Part shown: positions 17,834 through 61,720 of the stretch, one piece after another
Position numbering within the stretch: the stretch's first letter is position 1
How the letters are laid out: the number at the start of each line of letters is the position of its first letter
NCBI GenBank assembly: GCA_000002445.1
Contig: CM000207.1
Location: 384,001 to 448,000 of the forward strand
Origin: Trypanosoma brucei
Lineage: Eukaryota
Length of the DNA stretch: 64,000 nt
Reading direction: 5' to 3'
Translations under genes and position numbers: made by a program
Notes under the pieces: generated by a model
Told to the model about the DNA's origin: nothing
What the model saw: only the letters and a program-made list of their open reading frames with translations
The model's database searches: none

Positions 17834-19011
17834 CTTACTTTTGTAATATACCAACCTGATCTTCCCTCACCTTCCCCCTTTCCTCTTCCTTATTTACAAA
17901 TAGTGATCCGTACTGTTTCCCTTCCTCTCTCCCTGATTAGTCACTATTCCTCCCCCTCAATTCCTTCCGTTCTTGAGCGGATGTCCCTTTTTCTCTAGAT
18001 GAATGTGCCGGAACAAACTTTTTGCCGGGCAGTCTCTTGTCGTGTTGCGTGCCCCCTTTCAGTTACCATGCAACGTAAGACAACAGTAGCAGGTGGGAAG
18101 TACAAATGGACAACAGAAACGAGACGGGACAACAACGAATATCCCCTCTCTACGACTCCGTCGTACACTCCGTCTTCCTTTTTTGGTTTGTTTCTCACCC
18201 TGCTGCAATAACGGAAGTAGCCACCAAAAAAAAATCGGAGCCCAAGAAATTAAAGAAAGGCAAAGATGCAAATGTGACGAAAGCGGTAGGAAATCGAAAC
18301 AGCAACTTGGGTTAGGATGAACAGAGCGAAAAGGAAAGGTGGCACATAGGTATTCACAGCCGTGGGCCTCAATTTATGAGAAGGAGGTGAAAGAACATGT
18401 TAAACAGAAAAAAGTGTAAGCACTTCAGCACGAAAAAGTGGAAACCTAAGGTGTGGTAGACAACAAAAAAACGCTAAAACAAAAAAGAATTAGGTCCACG
18501 CACACTTGCGCTTGTGTAAAACAGTCTCCGAGATAACAACTCCTAAAAAGGAACAAAAGAACGGGGCATGGAAAACAAAAAACAAGTGAAAACGGTCCTC
18601 AGTATACGTAACGGTGAGGAAGGACGTGATGTACCCGCTCCGACGGCCACGCATCCCGCACTGACAGGAGAGAGGTGGGAGTGGGGAAGAGTGCGAATCA
18701 ATCGTGACACACATCACGGAAGGGGCACCACATATGCCACAGCAACAGAAAACATATTTTGCGCCCTGAGAGACACATATCGCCTTGCGGTGGGCCCCCA
18801 GGCACCCTCAGGTGTAGACACACACGACGGAGTTTGTGAGTTTACTATAAACAAAGAAAATAAAAAAGAGAATCGGCAACCAACATTTCGCTTCCTTCCT
18901 CCGATCTAGGGTCCCCGTCAAAACCTCTAGTGGGAAAAGAAAAGTGAGGCAACGATCACGACAATGCTACAGAAGAAAGACATAAAATGGAAATGAGGCG
19001 GCGTCCCAGTC

Positions 19012-22000: not shown

Positions 22001-25000
22001 CAGCTCATCCTATCTCCAGCGCCAACGAGTTTCGCCTCTGCCACACCAACATGCTTCTCCTCGGGTAACCACAAAGTCTCCTTCTGGCACTGTTCGCATA
22101 AGTACCGTGACTCAAACTGAATGAAAGAAATGTACTCACGCATTTTCCCGCACTGAGTGCAAAACGCTTGCTTGTTGTCGCTAACTGTTGATGCATCAGT
22201 AGAACCCAAACACAAGCGCATGTTGCCACACGTCGTACATACTTTGTTGTGATTTGAATTAAAGGCGTAGCTGCACAACATGCATGTCCACGTGGCTCCT
22301 GGGCGTGCTGTGGTGCACATTGCGCAGCGTGTAGAGTCTGAAAGGTTAATGAACGTGCACACTGCGCACGTCCACTCTTCCTCCGCCCTGTTAACATTGT
22401 TTGGTCTTTCCATACACTTGTACACGCAACGCCCACGCAAATGGTGACTTGAAACGTACTTCCCGCTAAAAGAAAAGGGTCCATGGGTATCAGCTCCTTC
22501 GCCTTCAACCTCATTTCCCGCGGTGACACGCAAAGTTACACAGACGCCCTCCTCAACCAGGAGCCACTCACAGGCGAAGCCAACAAAGGGAGAGGGAAGA
22601 CCGAGTCGCTGCATTACATGGTGAAGGGTTACACAAAGACTGTACGGGGCGGCGTGGCCCTCGCCCGCACAGTGGCCCCATTCCTCATCACAGACCGGAC
22701 AGCGGAGGTATACGATTTTTTCCGCCTCACCGGCATGCTCGTCTGCACGGGCATTGCCATCATCCGATCCACCCTCGCCACACTCGCTATATACATTATC
22801 ATCAATATCTTTCTTGTTGGAAATAGTCATACAGAGCTTGTCGTTGTCCGGTAACAACATCAACTCGTTCCACGCCTCCAACAAAATCTGCGACCCGTTA
22901 GGATGAACAGTATCCGGCATGGCCAGTATGCGAATGAATTGGCTTAACAACAGCCGCTGCGTCTCTTTGTCCCACAGTGTTACCTCCCCCATGTCTAACT
23001 CTGACAGAAGTCGAAGTGCGCAAATAAACGTTTTCGTCGAGTGGATGTAAACGATCTCATTGTTGTGCTCATCTGTGGTAAAACTAATAGACCTTGATAA
23101 GACACCCATAATCTCATTCGCAAGTAACCCCAGGGGAAGATCACCACTTACCACCGATTCATAATTTGGTTCTATTGCTACAGCAGGAACCGTGATGCTT
23201 CCACTACCACCTTCTCCTAAAACAATTTCGGCAAGAGAGCCCTTCTGTCTCACCAAGCGGACATCGAACGACCCTTTAATCTCTCCACGCGGCGGTCCAG
23301 TATAGGTAAACGACATTTCATCCCCGTCAGCACCCAAAACTTGAAGAGCCACAATTTCGTCCTGTCTCAACATTTGGGAAAGAAGCGGCACTAGAACAGA
23401 ATCCCAGCAACTGAGCATCGCCCGCATAACAAGTCGGGCACGGATGCCCGTTTCACAGGGCATGTACATCCACGAAGAAGTGGCGTCTTTATTATACATC
23501 TCCACAAACGGAAAGACAACCTTCACAGCAGATGGAATGTTTGTATAGAGAGTTCCCAATGGTAACTCATTGCGCCCAAAAGATATGCACCGTGCCTTTG
23601 TGTCAACTGTAACGGTAATTATATCACCTGAGCCAAAGATAATGCCATCTTTCTTCAGCATCCAGTGCTTAGAGTGTCGAAATAATTCAACACGGGCAGA
23701 TGGTGCCTCGACATCCGCAAAGTAATCCGTTATCGCGTAAACATGGTTCATGTCTTGCCGCGTTCCAGGATGTTGCTCAAGTTCTGTGCTTGTGGGGAGC
23801 GAATCATGGCAAGCAACGCCAACGTAGTAAAGGCGACCAAGAGAATCAAACTCAAAACCTCGTCTAACACGTACGGAAAACGACACAACATCGCCCAACG
23901 AACCGTCCAAAGGTATACCTTGTGATGCGAAGGAGGTGGTGTTCTGCACACCCCGGGAACTGCACTCCTCCGCTGTCAGTGATTTAACATGTCGACCGCC
24001 TGAAACAACGCGGAGGTCAGTTGCCGCGCTCGTTGTTGTGAAAAATGGTTTGTATACAGGGGCAGTAACCTGTCGAGAGAGTTGGCAGCAGCAATCCCAC
24101 AAGGGTATTGGATTGTACGTGGTGATGTCGAAGTTGCGGCCCGGTTCCTGCAGCACGACGTGTATTGTTGTCAGTGCTGCGCATCGTGCGCGCTCACCAG
24201 CCTCCTCACAGCAGACCACCTTTGTTAACGTACTGAGTATGTCCGCTGGGTGGGAAGAACAGTAAATTGCGGTACGCATAATGGTGATGTAGTCCATGAG
24301 AAAGCGGTGGTACACAAAAGAGGCAGCGCTCCGTTTCACTCGTTCAGTAGCATCATTAACATCATCAAGGAGTGAGAGATGCTTGATAGAATCAATAAGG
24401 CTTTCCACATTTTGACGCAGCCTGCAACAGCAACCGTCAATGAACCCCCTCCATGCCTCCTCGGAGTGGATGTGCCTTCTGCCAGAAGCGGTCCGATTCT
24501 TCACTTGCAACGAAGAGGAGGTGGGAGGGCTACTAACTCCACTTACCGACCGGTGAGCCTGAGCAAATCGCCGAGTACAGAGAGAAATCAAATAGGCGAA
24601 AACGAGAGTCGCGAACATAGAAATAAAGTGGCGGGTGGGTAGGCAATCACTACAAATTGATGCATCCCCTTTTCCTACCAAGCTGGCTGCGACAGTGGCA
24701 TCAATCGAACCAAGAACACTCAGCTCATCTGACCTAAACGAAATCCGAACGGCTTTCCCTTCCAAAGATAGTGAATCCGTAACGCCCACAAGAAGGTACA
24801 GCGCACGTGGGGGCGCTGGGAAAGAGGCAAAGCAGACGCCGTTCACAAGCAAACAAACCGCGCGCGTGGAAGTTTTGGGCGAAAAAGGGAAGCAAAACGT
24901 AACCCTGTCACCACGGGAAAGGGGCGGCAGAGAAAACACACGGTTTGCGTGACGAAGTTTTCCGCTGTGTGGTTCAAAATAAAACCCCAGTGGATCGCCT

Positions 25001-27945
25001 TCAACAATGTTACTCGTCACACCTGGGTGCTGTCCTGATGCGAGGGCAACAATCAACTCCTTTGACGGCATCGCCGTCAGGTTAATATCTGCGGCGTAGA
25101 GCATTGAAGAGGCAGCATTTGACGACGAAACGAGCGGCGGCGGCCGTGGTGATGAAAGCACCGAGGAAGGAAGAGTAGACGATATTGAAACGGTAGTTGA
25201 CGACAAGGAGAAAAGCTGAATGCTGGGAAAATACAACGGGGTGGAAGTGCTGCAAGCAGGTTCCCGGCCAGAAGGAACCCAGACGCCCAAACCACGCTCG
25301 CTGGCGCCGACCATGGTGAGCCCAACGAAGGTACCACCGTCATTCCCACCGTCACATTGCACCCTATCCCCTGTTTGTCCGCCATGTCTATGGACATCGC
25401 AATCCCCTATAAGGGCCCGCACGGACTCAATCACACTGTTCTCCTCCACTTCGTCCACCTTAAACGACGCAGTGCGCGCAAAATCGGTGAAACTGGGGAG
25501 GAGTCCCTCTACCTGACTAATAATTTTGTCCCAGATAAAGTCCAAATCCCTCTCATCCAACGGCGTTGCAAGTAGCGAAAGACTAATGAGCGCGAACGGA
25601 CCAAATTTATCCGTATCCCACAGGAACCGATGGGGCCCAAGTCTCCGCTGTTCTCCCTCAGGCATTGACATTACGTGCTGAAGCGCGGCAAATACGGCAG
25701 TGAACAATCGGTGTACCAAAACACGAATCTGTTCAGTCAAAACCTCTCCACAACCACTGAACCGCATCAGGTAGTGGTCACTTTCGTACATCATGAGGTC
25801 GCGAAGGAGGCTCACTACGCGGAACATATCCTGCGGAACGAAGCTTTCCTCCGCGCGCAGCAAAAGAAGCAAGGCACTTATGCACGTTCTCGCTCGCTCA
25901 GATTGTGTTGACAGATAATCACGCAGCTGAGCAACAGTAGCGGTGGATGAAAGAAGAGCAACGGTTCCTTCCACAATCTGCGTTGTTGACAGCTTGCAGG
26001 ATGATGCATGCTCGGAAGCAAACGCAGCCACGTCGGTGGCATCGGGATTCCCCCCAATCACACTGCTCGCAAGGCTAACGCGCTTCACAACATCCTGCCA
26101 AACCCATGACCCCCATGTTACTTGATCCGGCTCCCGCTCAGCAATGATGCTTCCAATCATACATAGCGCGGCACGAACGCCCCGCACATCACTCTGACGG
26201 CAAGAAATTCGCCTTCGCAGAGCACCGTCATCCATTTTTGCTATTTCCTTCAGCAGCGGTGGCAATTCCCTTGTCTCCACCCGAGGTTGCAGACCATTTG
26301 AGAACAGCATGATCGATTCCTCCCTCAGGTTTGTTGCGACGGGTGGACACTTTATTTGCTGCAGGAGATGGGTGGCGATTTCTAACTGGGCAGAACTTAA
26401 GGCGGCTCGAAACTCCTCTGCCCACCGACCATTCACTTCCACACACATCTCCAGCCGCACCTCCGCCTCCAACATAGGAACTCGAGCGCCTTCGTAACCC
26501 CTGCGGTACCTCAAGACACAACTGCAACCACCAATAAGTTCATGGGTCGCCTCCTCAACCGGCTCAAACCAAACTACGTTGGTTGATCGACGCGTCTCAC
26601 CGGCATCATCGCCGGTGCTCCCACCCCCAAGGGATGCATGCGGAATTAGTGCAATCTGCACATCATCACAATTTAACGCTTTCCGGACATGTACAGTGAC
26701 CTTCCGCGCCAGGGGAGCCACCAGAAACACTTCCGTTGTCTTCGCTAGCTCACTAGCAGGTGGGTTAAGTTCTAACGATCCGGCTTGTACCTTCGGCAGT
26801 TCAGTTTCAGCTGCACTAGTCCTTATTGCCGAGGGCTCATCTAGTCCCACCGGTAAGCGTCCCTCACCCAGTTGTGTATTTGAGGGAGACACCGAAGTCG
26901 ACTCGTTACGAGGTCCCACCTCAAGAGAGAGTACATACTTGGTCACGAAAGTCGCGGTTGACAACGAGCCGCGATTGGAACCACAGGGACGGGGTGGTCC
27001 CCGAACTCTTTCCAATATATGCGCCACATCCGCCGTGTCAGCCTCATCCAGCTTTGTGAAGCGCGTGATGTGAAGGATTGGCAGCACTACGTTGAAACCA
27101 AATATATCATTCTCCCCAGGAGTTTTGGATGACTCATTCCACCGGTCGAGCACCTCGCGTAGAATGCCAAGAAAAGCCACGGCGCTCCTTTTGTGGTGCA
27201 GCGCTTGCCCAGACAGGGATGCAGCTGTTGATACGAGCTGTTTTTGGCCATCGTTCTGCGGGGACGCCACCACCTCAACCATCTCCCTAATCCTCCCCTG
27301 CAGCCAACGCTCGTCTTGTCTCCCCTTAAGGTATGGAACCACCCAATTTAACGGGGCAAATCCTCGTCTTTCAGGGCTTACCATGGCTTCGCCACGAGGA
27401 ACATCTACACAGATTAAGGCCGATTCCGACAATCGACGTTGTGTCTTCTGGTTCATTGCTTCCCCACTGCCAGGCGCCCGACGCTCATTACATACGGACG
27501 AACTTTGCACCTCTAACTGACTGGATGGTAGCGTCGGATTTTCGAGGCATTGCTCTTGTGGAACCACGGCAGCTCTTTCACGTATAGATTGCAGCGCCTT
27601 TTGAAAGAGGGACGCACGCAACCAGTGACATGTCACCTGGTCCCAGCAAAACTCTGGGCGGACTGTTCTAACTATTTCAGCCACAGTATCATATATGACG
27701 CGGGCAAGCTGCATATCATCATTGTCGGACTGCGATACGCACGGCACCTTGAGCGGCCTAGCGCCCAAAGAGGCATCAAGGCCGAACTGAAGAAGCGGCC
27801 AAGCCAATTGGCAAAGGCGGTCAAGTGGAATGCTCATCATGTCGGCAATGGGGAAATCGATCACCTCCCCCGACGTAAGGCAGTGGCGAACGAAGCGACC
27901 CTGTGTCTGCTCTGGGAGTTCACCGGTTTGTTGCGACGTAATCAT
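19012..27945 (-). CDS. giant HECT-domain E3 ubiquitin ligase (~2977 aa) with two B30.2/SPRY domains and two RanBP2-type zinc fingers
   Basis: The C-terminus reads ...PTAHTCSPISLLLQPYSSAATMREKLEVSLHHMYEFGFV, matching the HECT C-lobe consensus LPxAHTCFNxLxLPxYxSxExLxxKLxxAI..GFG with the catalytic Cys retained. Two SPRY-like segments are present (GRYYYEVV...GWGT...SWGFNCQ...GDIIGTLLDLD...CWSVNGEE...YPYVS and ...GDIITVTVDTKARCISFGRNELPLG...VFPFVEMY). Two W-x-C-x2-C...N...C-x2-C RanBP2-type fingers are present (WTCAVCTFINLSDSTRCAMC and WTCMLCSYAFNSNHNKVCTTC). The track start at 28026 is GTG, and the first ATG is at 27943-27945 (MITSQQTG...). Confidence 0.85.
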   Translation of the reverse strand: MITSQQTGELPEQTQGRFVRHCLTSGEVIDFPIADMMSIPLDRLCQLAWPLLQFGLDASLGARPLKVPCVSQSDNDDMQLARVIYDTVAEIVRTVRPEFCWDQVTCHWLRASLFQKALQSIRERAAVVPQEQCLENPTLPSSQLEVQSSSVCNERRAPGSGEAMNQKTQRRLSESALICVDVPRGEAMVSPERRGFAPLNWVVPYLKGRQDERWLQGRIREMVEVVASPQNDGQKQLVSTAASLSGQALHHKRSAVAFLGILREVLDRWNESSKTPGENDIFGFNVVLPILHITRFTKLDEADTADVAHILERVRGPPRPCGSNRGSLSTATFVTKYVLSLEVGPRNESTSVSPSNTQLGEGRLPVGLDEPSAIRTSAAETELPKVQAGSLELNPPASELAKTTEVFLVAPLARKVTVHVRKALNCDDVQIALIPHASLGGGSTGDDAGETRRSTNVVWFEPVEEATHELIGGCSCVLRYRRGYEGARVPMLEAEVRLEMCVEVNGRWAEEFRAALSSAQLEIATHLLQQIKCPPVATNLREESIMLFSNGLQPRVETRELPPLLKEIAKMDDGALRRRISCRQSDVRGVRAALCMIGSIIAEREPDQVTWGSWVWQDVVKRVSLASSVIGGNPDATDVAAFASEHASSCKLSTTQIVEGTVALLSSTATVAQLRDYLSTQSERARTCISALLLLLRAEESFVPQDMFRVVSLLRDLMMYESDHYLMRFSGCGEVLTEQIRVLVHRLFTAVFAALQHVMSMPEGEQRRLGPHRFLWDTDKFGPFALISLSLLATPLDERDLDFIWDKIISQVEGLLPSFTDFARTASFKVDEVEENSVIESVRALIGDCDVHRHGGQTGDRVQCDGGNDGGTFVGLTMVGASERGLGVWVPSGREPACSTSTPLYFPSIQLFSLSSTTVSISSTLPSSVLSSPRPPPLVSSSNAASSMLYAADINLTAMPSKELIVALASGQHPGVTSNIVEGDPLGFYFEPHSGKLRHANRVFSLPPLSRGDRVTFCFPFSPKTSTRAVCLLVNGVCFASFPAPPRALYLLVGVTDSLSLEGKAVRISFRSDELSVLGSIDATVAASLVGKGDASICSDCLPTRHFISMFATLVFAYLISLCTRRFAQAHRSVSGVSSPPTSSSLQVKNRTASGRRHIHSEEAWRGFIDGCCCRLRQNVESLIDSIKHLSLLDDVNDATERVKRSAASFVYHRFLMDYITIMRTAIYCSSHPADILSTLTKVVCCEEAGERARCAALTTIHVVLQEPGRNFDITTYNPIPLWDCCCQLSRQVTAPVYKPFFTTTSAATDLRVVSGGRHVKSLTAEECSSRGVQNTTSFASQGIPLDGSLGDVVSFSVRVRRGFEFDSLGRLYYVGVACHDSLPTSTELEQHPGTRQDMNHVYAITDYFADVEAPSARVELFRHSKHWMLKKDGIIFGSGDIITVTVDTKARCISFGRNELPLGTLYTNIPSAVKVVFPFVEMYNKDATSSWMYMPCETGIRARLVMRAMLSCWDSVLVPLLSQMLRQDEIVALQVLGADGDEMSFTYTGPPRGEIKGSFDVRLVRQKGSLAEIVLGEGGSGSITVPAVAIEPNYESVVSGDLPLGLLANEIMGVLSRSISFTTDEHNNEIVYIHSTKTFICALRLLSELDMGEVTLWDKETQRLLLSQFIRILAMPDTVHPNGSQILLEAWNELMLLPDNDKLCMTISNKKDIDDNVYSECGEGGSDDGNARADEHAGEAEKIVYLRCPVCDEEWGHCAGEGHAAPYSLCVTLHHVMQRLGLPSPFVGFACEWLLVEEGVCVTLRVTAGNEVEGEGADTHGPFSFSGKYVSSHHLRGRCVYKCMERPNNVNRAEEEWTCAVCTFINLSDSTRCAMCTTARPGATWTCMLCSYAFNSNHNKVCTTCGNMRLCLGSTDASTVSDNKQAFCTQCGKMREYISFIQFESRYLCEQCQKETLWLPEEKHVGVAEAKLVGAGDRMSWFVSFGSEKQSYTDMKSTAYSFRKMLDAVLAVSPQAGDLTRYVPPLMHSSDDDGQFESGCLSLKVNPIQEQKQDGRGYRAVIPAIIYFCSRIVCSWGPNLAPKGLAKFSVLCRLRVIEDTWLTQLRKVTTDAAQSIFTSCLQILLSGKRSEQMVWSLSSIARVLMNCNTPFQKQRHYLLYALSLNAVRGGGDRTFREVCYAALNLLLEEASGQKLNVQCLREVITMVPVVANQQQLMVHASLRGVNASISADVTLTSWLIEVGERMERSQRLPALFDEPSPDTFPYVVELPDTRMGSGGELIVGQVRGSVGVLGNKGGRYYYEVVLPPNFDERGKTIVMGWGTIQHEVVSSGQHVGSDIHSWGFNCQDRLRIMTGEQALVTPRPIVGGDIIGTLLDLDTMMMCWSVNGEELTWIAVSTQGKGEAIYPYVSAAMDPHGVLVRLSYTQFKPEGYKDFSPGCGEEGGRLESSVKPQCFDFYVQLCDLVNDVVNCGFTVDSLAETDTWMEGGREALRNYPLLSSEVGGGSLYKLKPYLQHLRSINSLAVSVAKSHNIFRNSQFLMRNYEKVRRLLFFAARWAIVERQIDRRLLRNNVKRHRHVLIDLKEAKGVLEHGETLDFITLFDKSVTGQLFHQTHDADIYRDAVMFTTRLSGEVADDAGGVTRSVVSMMCDELQYREDEGGRRMEPLLPFFKLSSHSTMVTLVPNIDFYRSNPNHRQLFLQFFTWFGKLIGNITLSGYVMLSITLPRLVWMFLTFDEVTVKDYYADIDDSVRGALEDDDFLLNDEFYYSIPVIEWGLVCAASDTVGALRSKRSLAPAFPKGCFSEGAVVTSQGLCKSIEVERRRTEVGRALVHQYDELLSAMRLGVTSVVPSHSLQLIRWDDLQQRVCGSPCATAEDVMSSLDVSLLTKAVCDMLVEVVRGMSNRQRAMFLLFCSGQRRVPLPEKVQVSCGDDPAAVPTAHTCSPISLLLQPYSSAATMREKLEVSLHHMYEFGFV

Positions 27946-27965
27946 TTCAGAAAGCAAACAATGCA

Positions 27966-28000
27966 CTGAAGGAACAATAACCCCCCCCAAAAAAAAAACA
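27966..28000 (-). promoter_or_regulatory. putative trans-splicing signal for the HECT gene: a T10 polypyrimidine tract followed by an AG acceptor about 20 nt upstream of the ATG
   Basis: The minus strand reads TGTTTTTTTTTTGGGGGGGGTTATTGTTCCTTCAG|TGCATTGTTTGCTTTCTGAA-ATG. The AG corresponds to plus-strand CT at 27966-27967. This is pattern-based only, with no RNA evidence. Confidence 0.35.
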
Positions 28001-28149
28001 AGATGACGAATCAACAGGGTCGGCACGGAGCGAAATGAAATGTCGATCCCTAAGTAAAAAAAAACAAACTTACTTCTACCAGTTTGTTTTCGTTGACGAC
28101 CACCACTGCCCCCTTAGTTACACTACTAACCGATGCTGGTATACGTGTA

Positions 28150-46882: not shown

Positions 46883-47473
46883 ATGCTGCTGTCCGGTGAT
46901 GTGGAAGAGAATCCCGGCCCGTCGTTTCGCGGGATGCAGTGGAACTGCGCCGGGCTATCTCAAGGAAAGAGATTAGCACTCCACAAAACCCTTGTTGATG
47001 AGCGGATTGCCTTTTGTCTGTTGAGCGAGACAAGGATGACGCCTGGAGAGGCGGCTTGCTTTAGCGTTGCTGGCTACCAACATCACGTAATAGCTCGTAA
47101 CTGCAAAGGAGGTGCTATATCAATACTAGTGAGGGAGGACCTGCCAGTCGAGACCGGTATGGTCGTCGTTGGTCGCATTGAACAAGTGCATGCAACAATT
47201 CACCTTGCACGTGGAACGGCGCTGACTGTCACGTCGGCACACATCCCACCAAAACACACCTTCACGGCAACTGACCTAGATACGCTTCTGACGACTGACG
47301 GTGCCCAGCTCATCGGTGCAGACGCTAACGCACACGCGTTGGCATGGGATCGCGCGAGCCCACCAAATACCAAGGGTGAAACCCTCACACAGTGGTGCAT
47401 TGACAACCAGTTTCTGGTCTGCAACACTGGTGAGTGCACAAGATACGCGCCACCACGGGGAGTCCACCCCTGA
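46883..47473 (+). pseudogene. retroelement ORF fragment carrying the N-terminal 2A peptide and an AP-endonuclease domain (frame A), terminated by a frameshift
   Basis: MLLSGDVEENPGPSFRGMQWNCAGLSQGKR...ISILVREDL...LTVTSAHIPP... is an endonuclease/exonuclease/phosphatase-fold sequence. The frame stops at 47473, while the continuation is in another frame opening at 47301. Confidence 0.8.
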
Positions 47474-49640
47474 TGTGACACTGTCAAGGAATTGTAGAGT
47501 GTACACGTGGATATCGCTGTATTCTCCCGATAGCGATCACCATCACATATTTTTCGACGTTATCGTTGGAGACGAAACAGATGCGCTGAGCTGCCCGCGG
47601 CCTCGAAAGCCCATGTACGCATGGCTAAAAGCTGACTGGAGGAATTTCCGTCTGAAGGTTGACGAGTACTGCAGGAAAATTGGTAGAAAGAAGAACGTCA
47701 ACACCCTGGAACAGAAATTGAGCTCCGCCATCCGCATTGCGACGAAGGTCTCCGTCCCCCGTGGCTGCAGAGCAACGCCACCACATTGGACACCTGCGCT
47801 CGCGAAACTCGATGAAGAGATCGCTGGATGCGGACCCTCCCACCGAAGGGAAAAGTTGGTAGCCACGCGTAAGCAGATCCTGGACCGTACCACAAAGAAG
47901 AGATGGAGCACGCTATGCTCCAGACTTGCGGTGTCAGACCGCTGCAGTTGGCACATTGTCAAGAAGGTATATGCACCACGACCACTAACCACACCGGCGG
48001 CGCTGGTTGATAACGCGGCCATCACGGACTACCGTCAAGCTGAGAGGTTCATTAAACTGTACTCGTCCCGCGCAAGAAGACACCCCGACTCACACCCACC
48101 GGCACCCATAAAGACGACAGCGAGTGAGTTCAGTCCCATCACGATGGCTGAACTACGGAGATCGATCAAACTGCTACCGAGTGGATCCGCAGCCGGACCT
48201 GATTGCTTATACAACGAGGCACTACAACATATCGGTAGAACAGCGCTGAATGTTGTTCTGAGGCTATTCAACGAGAGCCTACGAACGGGAGTCGTGCCGC
48301 CTGCATGGAAGACTGGTGTTATCATCCCCATCCTGAAGGCCGGAAAAAAGGCGGAGGACCTCAAATCTTACAGGCCTATGACACTCACGAGCTGTCTCTG
48401 CAAAGTCATGGAACGCATAATTGCCGCGAGGCTTAGAGACACTGTTGAGTCCCAGCTGACGCCGCAGCAATCAGGCTTTCGCCCCGGATGCTCAACGCTC
48501 GAACAACTCCTGCACGTCCGTGCTGCCCTCTGCCGTCCCACGCACCAATATCGTACGGGTGCTGTATTCGTCGACTACTCGAAGGCATTCGATACAGTAG
48601 ACCATGACAAAATTGCGAGGGAAATGCACAGAATGAAGGCATCACCCCACATTGTGAAGTGGTGCGTATCATTTCCGAGTAACCGAACTGGCAGAGTGAG
48701 ATTCAAGGAGAAGCTTTCCAGAAGCAGAACATTTGAGCGAGGAGTGCCACAAGGAACTGTCCTTGGCCCAATCATGTTCATTATTGTCATGAACTCGTTG
48801 AGCCAATGCCTTGCAGAAGTGCCGTTACTGCAGCACGGATTCTTTGCAGACGACCTAACGCTACTTGCGAGGCACACAGAGAGGGATGTCATCAACCACA
48901 CGCTACAATGCGGCCTAAACGTGGTGTTACAGTGGTCAAAAGAGTACTTCATGTCTATCAATGTAGCGAAAACAAAGTTCACACTCTTCGGGTGTATAGA
49001 GCGCCACCCCCTTACATTACAACTGGACGGCGAAAGAATAGGAGCTGACAGGACACCGAAGCTTCTAGGAGTAACATTCCAGTGTCTGCAAGGGATGGCA
49101 ACACATGCGACCGAAACGGGACGCAAGATGGACTTCAGACTACTGCAGATAGCGGCCATCTCAGCTTCTACATGGGGGCCAAGAAGACAAGTACTGAGAG
49201 CTTTTTATCTAGCACTCGTACAGGCACACACCATGTATGGCATTGAGGTATGGTACTGGTATGCTTGGAAACGAAGTCGCGACCTCCTTGCAGCAGCGCA
49301 ACACAAAGCCAGTCGCATCATAGCTGGCATACCGCATGGGACGCGCGAAGAGGACTCTCTGCTGGAAGAAAACCTCCTGCCACTCAAGACGACCACTCTT
49401 GTGCGCAGCATGAAATTCATGCTGATGTGTGAGTCACGAGGCGGATGTTTGCGCTGCAGTGCTGAGGAAGTATACCGCAGCAAACACCCAGTCAGAGCCC
49501 TACATTCCCGCAGCATGCGGTCCTACCCCCACCTCCGCATTGAGCCATGGAAACAACCACTTTGGCCGGCGGTTCTTCAATGTAACTGCAGGACGATATT
49601 TTACACATGGGACAAGCCCGTGGGCAACGGGCACCCCTGA
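47301..49640 (+). pseudogene. retroelement ORF fragment with the endonuclease C-terminus and a reverse-transcriptase domain (frame B)
   Basis: 779-aa frame with LINE-type RT motifs (PILKAGKK, FRPGCST, YSKAFDTVDH, FADDLTLLA). It is offset from the upstream endonuclease frame and truncated before the C-terminal RNaseH-like and zinc-finger region expected in intact ingi/L1Tc. Confidence 0.8.
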
Positions 49641-54454: not shown

Positions 54455-56569
54455 CTACCGACTCGTCATGTTGTATGACACGTTATAATGCCCAGGACCA
54501 GGCGCCCGGGGGTTCTTGCGTTCCCACCTCTCGGACTGCAATCGATGACCACAGAACTGTGTCTCTTTGGTTATTTGCCTCTCAAAAAGCGGAACCGACT
54601 TGCATTTGTAGGGGATGTCAACATTGTAGACTGCCTGGGCACCGCATCCACCGGTGTTGAATAATCGCGCACGTTTTTCGCGCGAAACGTGTGTTTCAAT
54701 CATCGGGTTCCCCACCACACGAGGTTCTACTAGTCGGCGATTGCTGGTATCATAGCAAAGGTCATGCATCACTTGCCAGGTCGCAGGCGGCCGCGAGCTC
54801 CCATTTATTTTTGCTGCACGCTCTGTTGTTGGTTTCACCCATTTGTAATTCGGTACCTCGCCAATCTCCGCTGGGTTCGGTTGGTGCAATGGCGTGTGAC
54901 CAGGGGCCTTCGGGTTTATATACACCGCTACCGAACGTTTTGTCACAGGAGCCAAATTAACATTCTCCGGGGCCTCTGGCGCAACTGAAGTTGGTGCAAA
55001 GGAGCTCCGACCTTTCATCCTGGAAAACTGCCGTACCCGCGGGGCGTCACAACGATCGAACATGCCGCGAGGGAATGAGGTGTCGCGCTCGATCGACACG
55101 GAGCGGTCCACATTCTTCATCCGCTGCTGCTTCTCCAATTGCTCTTCAGTCGACAGCCGCGGTGCCATTAGTACGTTGCGAGTGCGCCGCCTCACGGCGT
55201 TCAATGCATTATCCACATCGGCGACATCCGGCACTGCTCTGTACGGGGGAGCCTTATTCAACCAGTGTTTCTCCCGTGTACTCTCACGGTCCATGGCGAC
55301 AATACGGTGGGGATTGTGCGCGATGTCACCTCCGACGTCGTACATACCCACCGCCGCCGCTGCCGCGACCGCCTCACGTTTTCGCTCAGTCACAGTAAAA
55401 GCGAACTTTGCGGGGCAGCGGACACGCTTAACAGTGGAACGAACATCGGCGTACGGGAAGTAGTCCAAGTCTGCTGCGGCACTCCGTGCACTGGCGACAG
55501 ATCGCGGCGTTTTAGATGTGAAGAAATAGCTCCCTGTGTTTGCCGGAGCCAACCGCTCGCGCACAACGAACGCGGGTTCCGGGACGCGGTAAGTAACACT
55601 CACTGCGAAGTCCCGCACGCTCTCCGCGCCGTGGATAGAAGGTGTCTGACAATCGAACACAGTTTTAGGGCGCGACAAACTGAGTTCCTCTGGTTGTTCC
55701 TCTTCTTTAACAGTTCGGGTACGTGGAGGGGCAATATACCCGCCAGTTACCCGTGGTTCCACCTGGCTGAAGCGCAGGTGGTAGTGTCCCAGTTCCGGAT
55801 GCCACACCCCAGGCAATGAGGACCCGTCGTGGAAGCGTTTCGCACGCTTGAAACTTGGTGATACCGACCTACCTGTCTCCCTCGGCGACTTCGCGCGACC
55901 TGAAAGCGTGGTTGCCCCCATTCCGTTTGCTGTTGCGGACAGCTGCGCCTCAGGGAGAATCGCAGCATTAAATTCAGAGGCCGTGGTCCAGTGCTCACGG
56001 CCCACGGCGTCAGAAACCGCGTCCGCATCGATGAGCCTATTCGCTGGAAGCATGAAGAGCGTAGTCTCCAGTTGCCGCGCGTCATCGGGATGTGGGGCGT
56101 TCTCAGTCGTCTTTTGCGCCATACGAGCCGTCCGTAACGCATCGATGCGGTAGGGACGAAAACTACTAATCAGTTCGTCGTTGTCTGCTATGTGTTTGAT
56201 CGTCTCCGCTGTGGGTACCATATCAACGATGGTGTTGTACCCGGCGCCCTCGATGATGGTGCCGCCCAGGTCGTTATTTACGTCAGCCGCCGCCTTTGTG
56301 CACGAAGGCGCCATGGTGCGGAGCTCTGGTAATACAAGACGGAATTCTGCCGCTACGTCCCAAGCTTTTTGGGACTCCCTTTGGAGCTGTAGCAGCCGCT
56401 CCCGCTCCTTTTTGCCGACGGACTGCACATTCTGAGAGATGCCGGCGCGACGGAGAAACGCATCACTTTTGTCGATTGAACAACCAACGCGGCTGAGACT
56501 CGGCTGGATGGTTGTCACGATCCGATTCAACATCTGCACGTCATCTAGAGCATTGTCCACAACCACCAT
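54455..56569 (-). CDS. hypothetical protein (704 aa), basic, Pro/Arg/Ala-rich, with no recognisable domain
   Basis: Long minus-strand ORF (MVVVDNALDDVQMLNRIV...) with ATG at 56567-56569 verified. The coding-like composition is continuous. Confidence 0.55.
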   Translation of the reverse strand: MVVVDNALDDVQMLNRIVTTIQPSLSRVGCSIDKSDAFLRRAGISQNVQSVGKKERERLLQLQRESQKAWDVAAEFRLVLPELRTMAPSCTKAAADVNNDLGGTIIEGAGYNTIVDMVPTAETIKHIADNDELISSFRPYRIDALRTARMAQKTTENAPHPDDARQLETTLFMLPANRLIDADAVSDAVGREHWTTASEFNAAILPEAQLSATANGMGATTLSGRAKSPRETGRSVSPSFKRAKRFHDGSSLPGVWHPELGHYHLRFSQVEPRVTGGYIAPPRTRTVKEEEQPEELSLSRPKTVFDCQTPSIHGAESVRDFAVSVTYRVPEPAFVVRERLAPANTGSYFFTSKTPRSVASARSAAADLDYFPYADVRSTVKRVRCPAKFAFTVTERKREAVAAAAAVGMYDVGGDIAHNPHRIVAMDRESTREKHWLNKAPPYRAVPDVADVDNALNAVRRRTRNVLMAPRLSTEEQLEKQQRMKNVDRSVSIERDTSFPRGMFDRCDAPRVRQFSRMKGRSSFAPTSVAPEAPENVNLAPVTKRSVAVYINPKAPGHTPLHQPNPAEIGEVPNYKWVKPTTERAAKINGSSRPPATWQVMHDLCYDTSNRRLVEPRVVGNPMIETHVSREKRARLFNTGGCGAQAVYNVDIPYKCKSVPLFERQITKETQFCGHRLQSERWERKNPRAPGPGHYNVSYNMTSR

Positions 56570-58830: not shown

Positions 58831-60222
58831 TTAAAAACACTCGGCTATGGCACGCGCGGCAAGCAGCACATCCTTGAAAGTGTTGTACAACGGCACTGGA
58901 GCGAGGAAGACAAGGTCCGTCGAGCACGTACTAACAATAATACCGACATCACGCAGATACCGCTCCATGCACTCCGCGTCACTTTCACTCTCACCCCCAT
59001 ATGAGGCCCGTGGCGTAAGGCTCGCTGACAATTTATTGGGTAGTATACGAATAGTCAACTGTGCTCCGCGCTGGCTTGGGTCGACGGAGGTCAAAAGGCG
59101 GATGGAGCCAGGCGGAACCAACTCACCGAGCAATAACTCCAAATAGGATGTCAGCAAAAGTGATTTCTCGCGTAGTGAGTCCATGCCAACCTTTGCTATG
59201 AGGCGCACACTTGGTAACAGGGCCATCATGCCAAGCACTGACACATTACTGAGCTGAAACCCTGCAGCGCCTTCCGCAGGCTCAAATTTATAGGACGGAT
59301 CAATGAGATCCCGCGGTTCGTGACCCCTACAGCCACGGAGCGTCTTGAGCTCACTCCCAACCTGCGTATGCTTCGTGTGCACAAAGGCACCAGCAAGGTT
59401 TCCTGGCCCGCTGTTTAGGTATCTATAAGTGCACCAACTTGCAAAATCCACCTCCCACTCGTGCAATTTGAGAGGCACGTTACCCACGGCGTGCGCACAA
59501 TCCACACCCACGATGATGCCTTTGGCGTGCGCGGCCTTCGTTATGGCCTGCACGTCAACCAGTTGCCCCGTAATAAAGTGGAGGGCGCTGAGTAGTATCA
59601 CCGCAATCTCACTCCCCCGCTTGTCGATGATGGAGAGGTATTCGGTCATTGGTATGTGTGCTGGGGAATCTTTCCCATCCTCATCTTTAGGAGCACACAC
59701 AGTGATGAGGTCCTCCGCTGGGTTAAGGCCCCGGGCCTCCAATTGCGACATCACCGCATAAACATTGTTGGGAAGGGCATAGTTCCCCATCATCACTAGC
59801 CGCCGATTTCCTTTCGGCTTGTAGAAGGCTATTAGCAACAAATGCAAGTTCACCGTGTAGGAATTCATTGTGATTACCTCACTCTCCTGCGCCCCGACAA
59901 TTTCCGCGATCTCCTTCCGGCCAAGGCGATCGACCTCAGCCCACGGGTTAGGGTGTTGGAATTCAGCGAGCACGCCGAGCTCACGCCACCGCTTCAGGGC
60001 ACCAGCAACACTCGACTCCACGTCCTTGTGCTGCAAACCAAGTGTTTGCCCACAGAGGTAAACGTGATCGGAACCGTCGCGCCGCTTTGGAATATTAAAG
60101 GCGTCGCGATGCACTTGCAGTGGGTCATTGCGGTCCATGCACTCAGCAAAACCATCTTCGGTGAGCGCAAGACCCTCGGCTCGTGCGGTGCTAAGAAGTT
60201 TTTCCGCTGCGTTATTGCGCAT
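58831..60222 (-). CDS. kynureninase-like PLP-dependent (fold-type I, class V) enzyme, 463 aa, with Arg in place of the expected Schiff-base Lys
   Basis: HAVGNVPLKLHEWEVDFASWCTYRYLNSGPGNLAGAFVHTKH and GAAGFQLSNVSVL align closely with human KYNU ([42 protein letters not shown] ... GVCGFRISNPPIL) and bacterial kynureninase (CTYKYLNGGPG). The codon at 59422-59424 (minus) is AGA, giving Arg where the PLP lysine is expected. ATG at 60220-60222 verified. Confidence 0.85.
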   Translation of the reverse strand: MRNNAAEKLLSTARAEGLALTEDGFAECMDRNDPLQVHRDAFNIPKRRDGSDHVYLCGQTLGLQHKDVESSVAGALKRWRELGVLAEFQHPNPWAEVDRLGRKEIAEIVGAQESEVITMNSYTVNLHLLLIAFYKPKGNRRLVMMGNYALPNNVYAVMSQLEARGLNPAEDLITVCAPKDEDGKDSPAHIPMTEYLSIIDKRGSEIAVILLSALHFITGQLVDVQAITKAAHAKGIIVGVDCAHAVGNVPLKLHEWEVDFASWCTYRYLNSGPGNLAGAFVHTKHTQVGSELKTLRGCRGHEPRDLIDPSYKFEPAEGAAGFQLSNVSVLGMMALLPSVRLIAKVGMDSLREKSLLLTSYLELLLGELVPPGSIRLLTSVDPSQRGAQLTIRILPNKLSASLTPRASYGGESESDAECMERYLRDVGIIVSTCSTDLVFLAPVPLYNTFKDVLLAARAIAECF

Positions 60223-60483
60223 ATAGGCGTCGAATGTATTGGAAGCGGTGTACTTGCACTTGGGTGCACGTTATACCCTCCGCTACTTCGGCTACTTCTT
60301 TGGCGACCTGCTCCGTCTCTGTTATGTACGTAAGCTATGCGTTCCAGGTGCTTAACTTTACACCAGTTGATGTATAAGGTTACCCGATACGATTCTACTT
60401 TTTCACCCTTCCCTTAGTTGTCAGCCCCCAGGATACCGGAGAATAATGACTAATTTCCTCCCTTACCCCGCTTCCCTTACGTT

Positions 60484-60506
60484 TTATTATTATTATTATT
60501 ATTATT
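60484..60506. repeat. (TTA)n microsatellite
   Basis: Direct read of ttattattattattattattatt. Confidence 0.9.
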
Positions 60507-61133
60507 TTTTACTTCCTCAAAGTTCAAGCGCACTATTTGCCTGTGTAAATGCTTCTTTCCTTATTTATTTGCTTAGTTTTCACAACTTCTGTGCTTCCTC
60601 CCCTTTGTTTGCTTCTCTCTGCTTTTTTTTCCCCCTTCACCTTTCCCTACTTATTTCCCCTCGTTTCTACTGTATTTTGTTTTTCCCCCTTATTATTTTT
60701 GTCTTCCTTTTATTTCCTTTCCTTACCAAAAAGGTTTGAGACAAGTTCCTTGGCGACGCCGTGACGGAGGAAAAAGGGGGGAAAAGGGGTAAGTGTATGT
60801 ATTTATGTATGTGTGTGTGTGTGACGTAACGTGACATGTACACACGTATGGCGACACCGCAACGAGTGATAAAAAGAAGAGGAGGATAACGACAGACGAA
60901 AAAAGGGAATAAAAAAATGAGAGCAGGCGATGGTAATGATGGAGCGCGTCATCTCAGTGGTGAGGGCCCTTCTTCTCCACCCCTCCCCCTCAACTTCATA
61001 CCCAATTTCAACCGAATTAGTTCAGTGCTGCGGCGATTAGAAAATATATAACCAAGTGGTTGTAGGCGGCTGCATCCAAACGACACTATCAATAGCTTTT
61101 GTCTGTGTCGAATATCCGGGTGAGAATGCTCAT

Positions 61134-61146
61134 GGGGGGGGGGGGG
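61134..61146. repeat. G13 homopolymer
   Basis: Direct read. Possible assembly or sequencing trouble spot. Confidence 0.85.
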
Positions 61147-61471
61147 AACTTGGGTACTACTACTACTTCAACTTCATACATGCATGAAAAAGTAAGAGAT
61201 GAATAAGAGAATTGGAATTCTAAAGGTATGAGCTTTTTTGTAGCGCAAGTAGGAGACACCCCTCAATGCTCCTCTTTTTCGATGGTTGCTAAATTATATT
61301 AAAAATTAGGAAAATACCGCATAGGAGGGAGGGGACGGGGGGACCAAAACCGAAAGAGACGCTAGCACAGTTGACCGATTCATATGGATGCACACGTGCT
61401 TACCGCATGTGTTTCCTTCCTTCTGTTTTTGCATTCTCAGTGTTCTCAGCATTCACTTGCTTCCTCGATCC

Positions 61472-61720
61472 TCATTTGCTCGGTGTGTTCTTGTTGGCGT
61501 GCGAACGGGAAGTGACGGTGATCTTCTTTACGGATGGATGGATGGAGCGTTCGATCTTGTCAGCCTTCTTTTTGTCAGCCATCACGAGGGTGTAAAGGTG
61601 GCGACTGCAACGGACCTTGAATTTGGTCACCTTCGGGTTGTGCTTCACCTTCACACAACGGGCATCCTTGCGACTGCAAATAGCAAGGAACTCCTTGAGG
61701 TTCTTGATCTCACGCGGCAT
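61472..61720 (-). CDS. RPL38: 60S ribosomal protein L38 (eL38), 82 aa
   Basis: [59 protein letters not shown]... matches the eL38 consensus ([60 protein letters not shown]). ATG at 61718-61720 verified. Confidence 0.88.

What the first reader, a model, noticed from the sequence alone, without database searches (positions are those of the whole stretch)
58831..60222. Kynureninase-like gene encodes Arg (AGA) at the position of the PLP Schiff-base lysine
The protein aligns almost residue-for-residue with kynureninases across the active-site segment (DFASWCTYRYLNSGPG versus human [17 protein letters not shown] and Pseudomonas CTYKYLNGGPG). At the residue that forms the internal aldimine with pyridoxal phosphate (human Lys276, P. 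fluorescens Lys227, as I recall them), this sequence has Arg267, codon AGA at minus-strand 59424-59422. The neighbouring Asp that binds the PLP pyridine nitrogen (GVDCAHAVGN) is retained. Arg cannot form the Schiff base, so this is either a catalytically dead kynureninase-like pseudoenzyme, a protein with a repurposed PLP-independent function, or a single A-to-G base error (AAA/AAG to AGA). A kynureninase in a trypanosome is itself worth confirming.
Basis: partly seen in the sequence, partly recalled or inferred. Interest (0 to 1): 0.6.

Follow-up and report, generated by a model that had tools for sequence, protein, structure and literature searches.

The report
Lysine-less "dead" kynureninase kept by trypanosomes
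The gene annotated as kynureninase in Trypanosoma brucei really does lack the lysine that holds the vitamin-B6 cofactor, plus eight other universally conserved active-site residues; the whole genus shares this, yet the protein is kept under strong selection, so it is most likely a non-catalytic pseudoenzyme and not the enzyme its name implies.

Summary
ORF 58831-60222 (-) encodes a 463-aa kynureninase homologue, and codon AGA at 59424-59422 gives Arg267 where human Lys276, P. fluorescens Lys227 and IscS Lys206 align.

It is not a base error. The same protein occurs in independent Trypanozoon assemblies. All nine Trypanosoma species examined lack the Lys: seven have Arg, encoded by AGA, CGT or CGG, and two have Met. 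All 235 non-trypanosomatid kynureninases examined have Lys.

The change is not isolated. Of 74 columns at least 97% conserved in canonical kynureninases, T. brucei has changed 17. These are enriched in active-site residues: S75T, H102E, L137Y, F165L, S167N, D168N, K276R, W305C and R434F. Asp241, which binds the cofactor's ring nitrogen, is retained.

The predicted fold is intact (TM 0.88-0.92 to human KYNU) and gene order is conserved. dN/dS between Lys-less species is 0.05-0.13, the same as a neighbouring gene. The former active-site codons evolve 1.4-2.8 times faster than the rest of the protein.

Best reading: a selected, catalytically dead kynureninase-fold pseudoenzyme with an unknown, non-catalytic role. 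The rest of the kynurenine pathway is reported missing in most trypanosomatids. I found no paper noting the loss, but the one biochemical paper on the T. cruzi protein could not be read.

The parts
58831..60222 (-). Complete CDS (463 codons plus TAA) of the kynureninase-fold protein. It is identical to T. brucei TREU927 XP_803513.1/Q38FV7 over residues 29-463 and to the 463-aa T. b. gambiense / T. equiperdum protein over its full length.
   Evidence: TIGR01814 286.8 bits (cut-off 246.4); Pfam KYNU_C and Aminotran_5
59422..59424 (-). Codon AGA = Arg267, in the column of the PLP Schiff-base lysine (human K276, P. fluorescens K227, IscS K206).
   Evidence: Lys in 235/235 non-trypanosomatid homologues; R or M in all 9 Trypanosoma species
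59500..59502 (-). Codon GAT = Asp241, equivalent to human D250 (binds the pyridine nitrogen). Retained in all Trypanosoma and Leishmania examined.
59764..59775 (-). L150-P-N152-N153, replacing the invariant F165-P-S167-D168 motif (Phe stacks on the PLP ring; Asp168).
59326..59331 (-). C298-R299, replacing the invariant W305-W/F306. This is the loop that, in solved kynureninases, reaches the partner subunit's phosphate site. The AF2 model has its lowest confidence here (residues 291-320).
58906..58908 (-). Codon TTC = Phe439, replacing invariant Arg434 (binds the substrate alpha-carboxylate).
59857..60045 (-). This segment carries T60 (human S75), E87 (H102) and Y122 (L137), three more invariant pocket residues that are replaced. 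T123 (T138) is retained.
60139..60222 (-). The first 28 codons (MRNNAAEKLLSTARAEGLALTEDGFAEC) are missing from the TREU927 annotation, which starts at M29. Residues 1-15 are among the most conserved 15-residue stretches of the protein within Trypanosoma (0.89 mean pairwise identity). The MRN start and the block behind it are present in nearly every full-length trypanosomatid sequence aligned (two have MQN).
61475..61720 (-). Ribosomal protein L38 gene, the upstream synteny anchor shared with T. vivax, T. melophagium and Leishmania loci.
54455..56569 (-). 704-aa conserved protein with no Pfam domain, the downstream synteny anchor (58% identical to the T. vivax neighbour). A gene of similar size (704-903 aa) lies downstream in every locus long enough to show it; only the T. 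vivax copy was compared by sequence.

Best explanation
This is a real, expressed-type gene for a kynureninase-fold (fold-type I, class V aminotransferase-like) protein that has lost its catalytic machinery. The Schiff-base Lys became Arg once, at the base of the genus Trypanosoma, together with loss of H102, L137 and D168. Later, individual lineages also lost F165, S75, W305 and R434. Without the Lys that forms the internal aldimine and shuttles protons, the Phe that stacks on the cofactor, the Trp that holds the phosphate and the Arg that holds the substrate carboxylate, the T. brucei protein cannot plausibly hydrolyse kynurenine or 3-hydroxykynurenine. Yet the fold, the reading frame and the chromosomal position are all kept. 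Selection is as strong as on a neighbouring housekeeping-type gene, while the former pocket is now the fastest-evolving part. The selected function therefore resides in the scaffold, not the pocket: the dimeric body and surfaces such as the trypanosomatid-specific conserved N-terminus. Shown here: the substitutions, their phylogenetic distribution, the purifying selection, and fold retention in a model. Inferred: loss of activity, loss or weakening of PLP binding, and a non-catalytic (binding, regulatory or scaffolding) role. Speculative: Arg267 (Met in the T. theileri group) fills the vacated cofactor site and may pair with the retained Asp241.
For: Arg267 aligns to K276, K227 and IscS K206. 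An identical protein occurs in independent Trypanozoon assemblies. All nine Trypanosoma species lack Lys, with codons AGA, CGT, CGG or ATG. Lys is present in 235/235 non-trypanosomatid homologues. T. brucei has changed 17 of 74 near-invariant columns; 9 of 13 a-priori active-site residues changed versus 8 of 61 other invariant columns, Fisher p=1e-4. dN/dS is 0.05-0.13 between Lys-less species by four methods, with bootstrap upper bounds of 0.16 or less. The neighbouring control gene gives 0.084-0.085. Former active-site codons have pN 1.4-2.8 times that of the rest. The AF2 model has pLDDT 88.8 and TM 0.88-0.92 to human KYNU. Synteny and a gene tree that matches the species tree indicate orthology. 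There are at least three further independent Lys losses (K to T in L. martiniquensis and Porcisia; K to N with D250N in Leptomonas seymouri), plus pocket erosion in Lys-retaining Leishmania. Trypanosomatids are NAD auxotrophs lacking the de novo pathway (PMC3833962), and TDO is found only in a few kinetoplastids (PMC12145556).
Against: No biochemical data were available to me. Ecco et al. [quoted passage not shown] Asp241, His244, Tyr266, Thr123 and Asn326 are retained in T. brucei, and the segment around R267 is highly conserved, so non-covalent binding of PLP/PMP or a related ligand is not excluded. A metabolomics paper reports anthranilate and 3-hydroxyanthranilate in bloodstream T. brucei (PMC12145556). 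The roles assigned to individual residues come from my recollection of the human and Pseudomonas structure papers, which were not readable here. I found no T. brucei expression, localisation or knock-down data.
Confidence: 0.76

Rival explanations
1. Sequencing or assembly error: a single A-to-G miscall turned AAA/AAG (Lys) into AGA.
For: AGA is one transition away from AAA.
Against: The 463-aa protein is 100% identical in T. b. gambiense DAL972, T. equiperdum and further contigs. T. congolense, T. vivax, T. cruzi (5 cluster members, 8 contigs), T. conorhini, T. rangeli and T. grayi all have Arg, and T. theileri and T. melophagium have Met. The Arg codons differ: AGA, CGT, CGG.
Confidence: 0.01
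2. A decaying relic: the pathway was lost, the gene is no longer needed, and it is drifting towards pseudogenisation without any function.
For: The rest of the kynurenine/NAD de novo pathway is reported absent (PMC3833962, PMC12145556). Active-site residues erode progressively and independently in several lineages. The gene is reported lost in Vickermania (PMC7828693).
Against: The ORFs are intact and full-length in all eight Trypanosoma and four Leishmania genomes sampled. dN/dS is 0.05-0.13, equal to the neighbouring epimerase gene at 0.084-0.085. 57 of 74 family-invariant (mostly structural) positions are kept. The predicted fold has high confidence. Arg is maintained through synonymous codon turnover.
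Confidence: 0.05
3. Still an active kynureninase or another PLP enzyme. Arg267 is tolerated because PLP binds non-covalently and substrate forms the external aldimine directly. The enzyme would detoxify host 3-hydroxykynurenine or make anthranilate.
For: It scores above the TIGR01814 equivalog cut-off. Asp241, His244, Tyr266, Thr123 and Asn326 are retained. The literature treats the T. cruzi protein as a kynureninase (PMC3197528, PMC10811785), and the title of Ecco et al. 2009 implies a recombinant protein was characterised. Anthranilate and 3-hydroxyanthranilate were reported in T. brucei extracts (PMC12145556).
Against: The Lys is invariant in 235/235 other family members. In T. brucei the ring-stacking Phe, Asp168, the phosphate-binding Trp, the carboxylate-binding Arg and the 3-OH-recognising His102/Ser75 are also gone. 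Pocket positions differ among Trypanosoma species and evolve faster than the rest of the protein; an active site would be the slowest-evolving part. Met at this position in two species cannot act as a base. Citing papers call the T. cruzi protein 'putative' (PMC3197528).
Confidence: 0.08
4. Neofunctionalised enzyme with Lys-independent chemistry, for example a PMP-type fold-type I enzyme like the sugar 3-dehydratases ColD/E1 (His replaces the Lys), or a new small-molecule-binding or sensor protein that uses the remodelled pocket.
For: Strong purifying selection. Asp241 is retained and the R267 loop is highly conserved. Arg is conserved in 7 of 9 species through codon turnover. From my own knowledge, Lys-less fold-type I enzymes are precedented (ColD, E1).
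Against: The replacement residue is Arg or Met, not a catalytic His. Pocket-lining positions are not fixed to a new consensus within Trypanosoma, for example position 165 = L,L,I,S,S,L,F,F and position 434 = F,F,F,R,R,L,L,H. No new conserved Lys or other nucleophile appears at pocket positions.
Confidence: 0.1

Closest known systems
Canonical kynureninase (EC 3.7.1.3; human KYNU 2hzp/3e9k, P. fluorescens 1qz9; TIGR01814, Pfam KYNU_C + Aminotran_5)
   Same: It is a clear homologue and orthologue by descent: 34% identity to human, TM 0.88-0.92, a TIGR01814 score above the cut-off, and the same two-domain architecture. Asp250, His253, Tyr275, Thr138 and Asn333 equivalents are retained.
   Different: It lacks the Schiff-base Lys and eight other residues that are invariant in all 87 canonical sequences compared (S75, H102, L137, F165, S167, D168, W305, R434), plus R313, F314, D426 and R428. 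It carries a kinetoplastid-specific C-terminal-domain insertion and a conserved N-terminal extension. Its pathway partners are reported absent (PMC3833962, PMC12145556).
Lys-less fold-type I PLP-family pseudo-subunits, e.g. serine palmitoyltransferase LCB1/SPTLC1 (own knowledge)
   Same: A fold-type I PLP-enzyme homologue that has lost the cofactor lysine yet is conserved and functional as a protein.
   Different: LCB1 works as an obligate heterodimer with a catalytically competent paralogue (LCB2). No second, intact kynureninase paralogue appears for T. brucei in the protein search, so a homodimer of two dead subunits is expected.
Trypanosomatid 'prozymes': catalytically dead paralogues that activate AdoMetDC, deoxyhypusine synthase and PRMT1 (own knowledge)
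   Same: It occurs in the same group of organisms, has dead-enzyme architecture and is under strong conservation, in a lineage with a known habit of re-using dead enzymes as regulators.
   Different: Prozymes arise by duplication and pair with the live paralogue. This gene is single-copy, and it is the orthologue itself that died.
PMP-dependent sugar 3-dehydratases ColD / E1 (own knowledge)
   Same: Fold-type I proteins that function without the canonical Lys.
   Different: They carry a catalytic His at that position and a conserved, specialised pocket. Here the residue is Arg or Met and the pocket is variable.

Membership tests
Kynureninase (EC 3.7.1.3) | Sequence homology above the curated family threshold | tested here: met
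   TIGR01814 scores 286.8 bits against a cut-off of 246.4. Other Trypanosoma score 273-323, canonical kinetoplastids 373-382 and a bacterial enzyme 487.
Kynureninase (EC 3.7.1.3) | Fold-type I PLP fold with the kynureninase C-terminal domain | tested here: met
   AF2 model pLDDT 88.8. Foldseek TM 0.88/0.91-0.92 and rmsd 2.3-2.4 A to 2hzp/3e9k. Pfam KYNU_C and Aminotran_5.
Kynureninase (EC 3.7.1.3) | Lysine forming the internal aldimine with PLP (human K276 / Pf K227) | tested here: not met
   Arg267 (AGA) occupies this column. Lys is present in 235/235 non-trypanosomatid members.
Kynureninase (EC 3.7.1.3) | Aspartate binding the pyridine nitrogen (human D250) | tested here: met
   Asp241 is retained in all Trypanosoma.
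Kynureninase (EC 3.7.1.3) | Cofactor ring and phosphate environment (F165 stacking, D168, T138, Y275, W305*, N333*) | tested here: not met
   F165L, D168N and W305C are changed; T123, Y266 and N326 are retained. The residue roles are from my own knowledge of the structure papers.
Kynureninase (EC 3.7.1.3) | Arginine binding the substrate alpha-carboxylate (human R434), and 3-OH recognition residues (S75, H102*) | tested here: not met
   R434F, S75T and H102E.
Kynureninase (EC 3.7.1.3) | Hydrolysis of L-kynurenine / 3-hydroxykynurenine | not testable with these tools
   This needs an enzyme assay. The only biochemical paper (Ecco et al. 2009, PMID 19699281) is not held in the library.
Kynureninase (EC 3.7.1.3) | Pathway context (TDO/IDO, formamidase, KMO, HAAO) | not tested
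   Literature only. The de novo NAD pathway is absent in trypanosomatids (PMC3833962). No TDO/IDO has been found in T. brucei (PMC12145556). The genome outside the window was not searchable.
Pseudoenzyme (catalytically dead homologue maintained by selection) | Loss of residues essential for catalysis | tested here: met
   Fisher p=1e-4 for enrichment in active-site positions.
Pseudoenzyme (catalytically dead homologue maintained by selection) | Retention of the fold and purifying selection after the loss | tested here: met
   dN/dS is 0.05-0.13 between Lys-less species, against a control gene at 0.084-0.085. Fold retention.
Pseudoenzyme (catalytically dead homologue maintained by selection) | Demonstrated absence of activity and a demonstrated alternative function | not testable with these tools
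   Needs biochemistry and genetics.
Trypanosomatid prozyme | Dead paralogue coexisting and hetero-oligomerising with a live paralogue of the same enzyme | tested here: not met
   Only one T. brucei cluster (P0001/P0121) appears among the 120 best hits. An intact paralogue would be expected to score at least as well as the distant bacterial kynureninases that made the list (lowest listed 314 bits).
Lys-less PMP-dependent fold-type I enzymes (ColD/E1 type) | Catalytic His in place of the Lys, and a conserved specialised pocket | tested here: not met
   The residue is Arg or Met, and pocket positions vary among species.

The most novel reading that the evidence does not exclude
At the origin of the genus Trypanosoma the only surviving enzyme of a lost tryptophan-to-NAD pathway was converted into a non-catalytic protein with a new, selected role. 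Possible roles are a prozyme-like regulator of another protein, or a sensor or binder of host-derived kynurenines, aromatic keto-acids or B6 vitamers. This would be the first pseudo-kynureninase and a further instance of the trypanosomatid habit of recycling dead enzymes. The parallel Lys losses in Mundinia, Porcisia and Leptomonas seymouri would then mean that the non-catalytic role predates the loss and is shared by all trypanosomatids.
Probability: 0.25. Interest if true: 0.8.

Novelty: new variant of a known kind. Interest (0 to 1): 0.55.

Why it matters
The gene is annotated 'kynureninase' in every trypanosomatid genome because it passes the family HMM threshold. That label is used in three ways. 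It feeds metabolic reconstructions. It supports arguments for a kynurenine pathway in T. brucei (PMC12145556). It also supports proposals that T. cruzi uses the enzyme to escape host 3-hydroxykynurenine or to make AhR-active metabolites (PMC3197528, PMC10811785). If the protein is catalytically dead, those inferences fail for Trypanosoma.

The protein then becomes an open question of a different kind. It would be a single-copy, strongly conserved pseudoenzyme of unknown function in major pathogens. It would also be the only Lys-less clade found among about 270 diverse kynureninase-family sequences. The case is directly testable with a PLP spectrum, an activity assay, an R267K revertant and a knock-out.

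Tried and rejected
- **Base error:** rejected on cross-assembly and cross-species evidence.
- **Relocated Lys:** I listed every Lys conserved in at least 6 of 8 Trypanosoma species. None sits at a known pocket position, and the nearest candidate (K293) is Arg in T. conorhini.
- **Prozyme model:** no intact paralogue was found.
- **Reading the primary papers:** Ecco et al. 2009, Lima et al. 2007 and Phillips 2011 are not held in the library. Residue roles therefore rest on my own knowledge plus the invariance computed here.
- **T. brucei expression or phenotype data:** the literature and one proteomics supplement gave nothing.
- **T. congolense DNA:** not on record, so the closest-pair dN/dS could not be computed. 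The T. brucei-T. vivax and T. brucei-T. cruzi pairs are saturated at synonymous sites (pS about 0.8), so selection was measured within the T. cruzi and T. theileri clades.
- **Bacterial promoter/terminator scan:** irrelevant for a trypanosome polycistron.
- **Model coordinates:** not exposed, so pocket volume, a possible Arg267-Asp241 contact and dimer-interface conservation could not be measured.
Full report
**Observation**

The minus-strand ORF 58831..60222 encodes 463 residues. The window is Trypanosoma brucei brucei TREU927. The protein is 100% identical to 'kynureninase, putative' XP_803513.1/Q38FV7 over residues 29-463.

HMMER alignment to solved structures gives human kynureninase at E=5e-74 and P. 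fluorescens kynureninase at E=4e-27. It places WCTYRYLNSGPG opposite human [12 protein letters not shown] and Pseudomonas CTYKYLNGGPG. Counting residues along the printed PDB chains reproduces the literature numbering:
- Tb R267 = human K276 = Pf K227
- Tb D241 = human D250 = Pf D201
- Tb F439 = human R434

An independent alignment to E. coli IscS puts R267 opposite the His-Lys of the IscS cofactor motif. The protein passes the NCBIfam kynureninase equivalog (286.8 bits; cut-off 246.4) and hits Pfam KYNU_C and Aminotran_5.

**Not an error, and not confined to T. brucei**

A 463-aa protein annotated in T. b. gambiense DAL972 and T. equiperdum, found on five contigs, is identical to the window ORF. 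In an alignment of trypanosomatid orthologues the Lys column reads as follows:
- Arg in T. brucei, T. congolense, T. vivax, T. cruzi (all five cluster members, including T. c. marinkellei), T. conorhini, T. rangeli and T. grayi.
- Met in T. theileri and T. melophagium.

The codons are AGA, CGT, CGG and ATG. Arg has therefore been kept while its codon turned over.

Most monoxenous trypanosomatids and Leishmania keep Lys. L. martiniquensis and Porcisia have Thr. Leptomonas seymouri has Asn and also D250N. A neighbour-joining tree recovers the species relationships. Trypanosoma is monophyletic in it and the other Lys-less taxa are scattered, so the Lys was lost at least four times within Trypanosomatidae (a crude tree).

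Outside trypanosomatids the column is Lys in 87 of 87 sequences from the first search. It is also Lys in 148 of 148 further representatives, each from a different 50%-identity cluster of the 1.84-billion-protein library.

**The Lys is only the most visible casualty**

I reconstructed human numbering from the PDB alignment and tabulated the residues I know from the human and Pseudomonas structure papers to form the cofactor and substrate site. That knowledge is my own; the papers were not readable here. In the 87 non-trypanosomatid sequences, S75, H102, L137, F165, S167, D168, D250, H253, Y275, K276, W305 and R434 are each 100% invariant.

T. brucei has:
- Changed: T60 (S75), E87 (H102), Y122 (L137), L150 (F165), N152 (S167), N153 (D168), R267 (K276), C298 (W305), R299 (W306) and F439 (R434).
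- Retained: T123 (T138), D241 (D250), H244 (H253), Y266 (Y275) and N326 (N333).

Of the 74 columns at least 97% conserved in canonical enzymes, T. brucei keeps 57, largely Gly, Pro, Trp, Asn and Asp scaffold positions. It changes 17. Nine of the 13 a-priori active-site residues are changed, against 8 of 61 other invariant positions (Fisher p=1e-4).

H102, L137, D168 and K276 are changed in every full-length Trypanosoma sequence, which suggests ancestral loss. F165, S75, W305 and R434 are lost lineage by lineage. Leishmania, although it retains Lys, has lost Y275, R434 and often W305.

**Selection**

Codon alignments were built from orthologue DNA. Between species that both lack the Lys, dN/dS is:

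| Pair | dN/dS (NG86) |
|---|---|
| T. cruzi - T. conorhini | 0.067 |
| T. cruzi - T. rangeli | 0.098 |
| T. conorhini - T. rangeli | 0.118 |
| T. melophagium - T. theileri | 0.078 |

Bootstrap 95% upper bounds are 0.16 or less. LWL85, YN00 and ML estimates agree, spanning 0.05-0.13. The neighbouring epimerase/dehydratase gene in the same genomes gives 0.084-0.085. The Lys-less gene is therefore as constrained as an ordinary gene.

Leishmania pairs give 0.18-0.23 for this gene and 0.21-0.30 for the control. Pairs that include T. brucei are saturated at synonymous sites, and T. congolense DNA was not on record.

Nineteen codons correspond to the former pocket. Their non-synonymous divergence is 1.4-2.8 times that of the rest of the protein in every pair. 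This is the reverse of what an enzyme shows.

Within Trypanosoma the least conserved stretch is residues 301-315. This is the loop that, in solved kynureninases, crosses to the partner subunit's active site. Residues 1-15 tie with 106-120 as the most conserved 15-residue stretches (0.89), closely followed by 271-285 (0.88), which lies just after R267.

**Fold and locus**

An AlphaFold2 model built on the 34-sequence alignment has mean pLDDT 88.8 and pTM 0.89. Confidence dips lowest at residues 291-320, with smaller dips at 181-190 and 401-410. Foldseek finds human kynureninase first (TM 0.88 by query, 0.91-0.92 by target, rmsd 2.3-2.4 A). P. fluorescens kynureninase comes next, followed by cysteine desulfurases.

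Gene order is conserved. It runs RPL38, then an epimerase gene in the T. cruzi and T. theileri clades and Leishmania, then this gene, then a 700-900-aa protein with no recognised domain. In T. brucei, RPL38 lies at 61475-61720 and the downstream neighbour at 54455-56569. The epimerase is absent in both T. brucei and T. vivax. The gene is thus the positional orthologue of the Lys-containing genes of other kinetoplastids.

**Biological context from the literature**

- Trypanosomatids need exogenous nicotinate or nicotinamide and lack the Trp-to-NAD machinery (PMC3833962).
- Among kinetoplastids, TDO homologues are reported only from Paratrypanosoma, Bodo saltans, T. theileri and T. melophagium (PMC12145556).
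- The gene is reported lost in Vickermania (PMC7828693).
- T. cruzi transcripts are detected (PMC10204194), and the L. braziliensis protein is detected (PMC8886221).
- Papers cite Ecco et al. 2009 for a 'putative T. cruzi kynureninase'. They build hypotheses on it about detoxifying host 3-hydroxykynurenine or producing AhR-active metabolites (PMC3197528, PMC10811785).
- No paper I could search mentions the missing Lys or calls the protein a pseudoenzyme.

**Mechanism**

The best-supported reading is a pseudoenzyme. It is a homodimer-type fold-type I scaffold whose catalytic pocket has been released from constraint while the body of the protein is selected.

- Shown: the substitutions and their phylogeny; purifying selection after the loss; faster evolution of the pocket; a confident kynureninase-like model; orthology.
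- Inferred: no kynurenine hydrolysis; weakened or lost PLP binding; a function carried by the scaffold or surfaces, possibly including the trypanosomatid-specific N-terminus.
- Speculative: Arg or Met at position 267 plugs the vacant cofactor site next to the retained Asp241.

Rivals are listed with their tests:
- A base error is excluded.
- A drifting relic is contradicted by dN/dS and by the intact ORFs.
- Retained kynureninase activity would require catalysis without nine invariant residues.
- A new Lys-independent chemistry or ligand-binding pocket is possible. It is weakened by the lack of a new pocket consensus and by the Arg/Met alternation.

**Comparison and novelty**

By descent and fold the protein belongs to the kynureninase family. 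By the defining catalytic features it fails membership as an enzyme.

It resembles Lys-less fold-type I subunits such as LCB1/SPTLC1, and the dead 'prozymes' of trypanosomatid polyamine, hypusine and arginine-methylation enzymes. Unlike these, it is single-copy with no live partner. I rate it a new variant of a known kind: a pseudoenzyme derived from kynureninase, apparently undescribed.

Interest is moderate. It corrects an annotation that is in active use in parasite metabolism and host-parasite hypotheses, and it defines a cleanly testable question. However, pseudoenzymes are common, and no function can yet be proposed with confidence.

**Limits**

- Residue roles come from memory.
- The neighbour-joining tree and the pairwise dN/dS values are simple methods.
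- No T. brucei expression or fitness data were retrieved.
- The key biochemical paper was unread.

Noticed in passing
window 60139-60222 (-): The TREU927 annotation of this gene (XP_803513.1, 435 aa) starts at Met29. The upstream in-frame Met1 adds 28 residues (MRNNAAEKLLSTARAEGLALTEDGFAEC). These are present in nearly every full-length trypanosomatid orthologue aligned, and residues 1-15 are among the most conserved stretches within Trypanosoma. The T. b. gambiense and T. equiperdum annotations use Met1, so the TREU927 gene model is probably truncated at the N-terminus.
   Followed up: partly
window 60223-61474; loci L001, L002, L004, L005, L006, L008-L011: An NAD-dependent epimerase/dehydratase gene lies between RPL38 and the kynureninase-like gene in T. 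melophagium and Leishmania, and immediately upstream of the kynureninase-like gene in T. cruzi, T. conorhini and T. theileri. It is absent from that interval in T. brucei and T. vivax (no tblastn hit). This suggests the gene was lost in salivarian trypanosomes.
   Followed up: partly
window residues 395-420 of the ORF (about 58963-59040); alignment A1 columns about 590-620: Kinetoplastid kynureninase homologues, including Lys-retaining bodonid-like sequences, carry an insertion of about 25 residues in the C-terminal domain ('YECG...D' in most, 'SYGGESESD' in T. brucei). It is absent from human and bacterial enzymes, and its role is unknown.
   Followed up: no
P0021, P0024, P0026, P0029, P0031, P0017 (Leishmania, Porcisia, Leptomonas seymouri): Leishmania orthologues keep the Lys but have lost Tyr275, Arg434 and often Trp305. 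L. martiniquensis and Porcisia have Thr, and Leptomonas seymouri has Asn (plus D250N), at the Lys position. The 'kynureninase' of Leishmania may therefore also be inactive.
   Followed up: partly
window 4394-17854 (-) and 19012-28026 (-): There are two giant ORFs. One is a 4,486-aa protein built of many fibronectin type III-like repeats. The other is a 3,004-aa HECT-domain ubiquitin ligase with SPRY and RanBP zinc-ribbon domains.
   Followed up: no
window 47301-49640 (+): This is the only ORF of at least 250 aa on the plus strand that does not overlap a larger minus-strand ORF, in a window where nearly all long ORFs lie on the minus strand. I did not check whether it is a real gene or a strand-switch.
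   Followed up: no
L006 1739-3028 (T. theileri epimerase gene): The T. theileri copy of the neighbouring epimerase carries a long poly-Asn insertion (NNNNNTNTTNNNNNNNNNNNNNN) that is absent from the T. cruzi copy.
   Followed up: no
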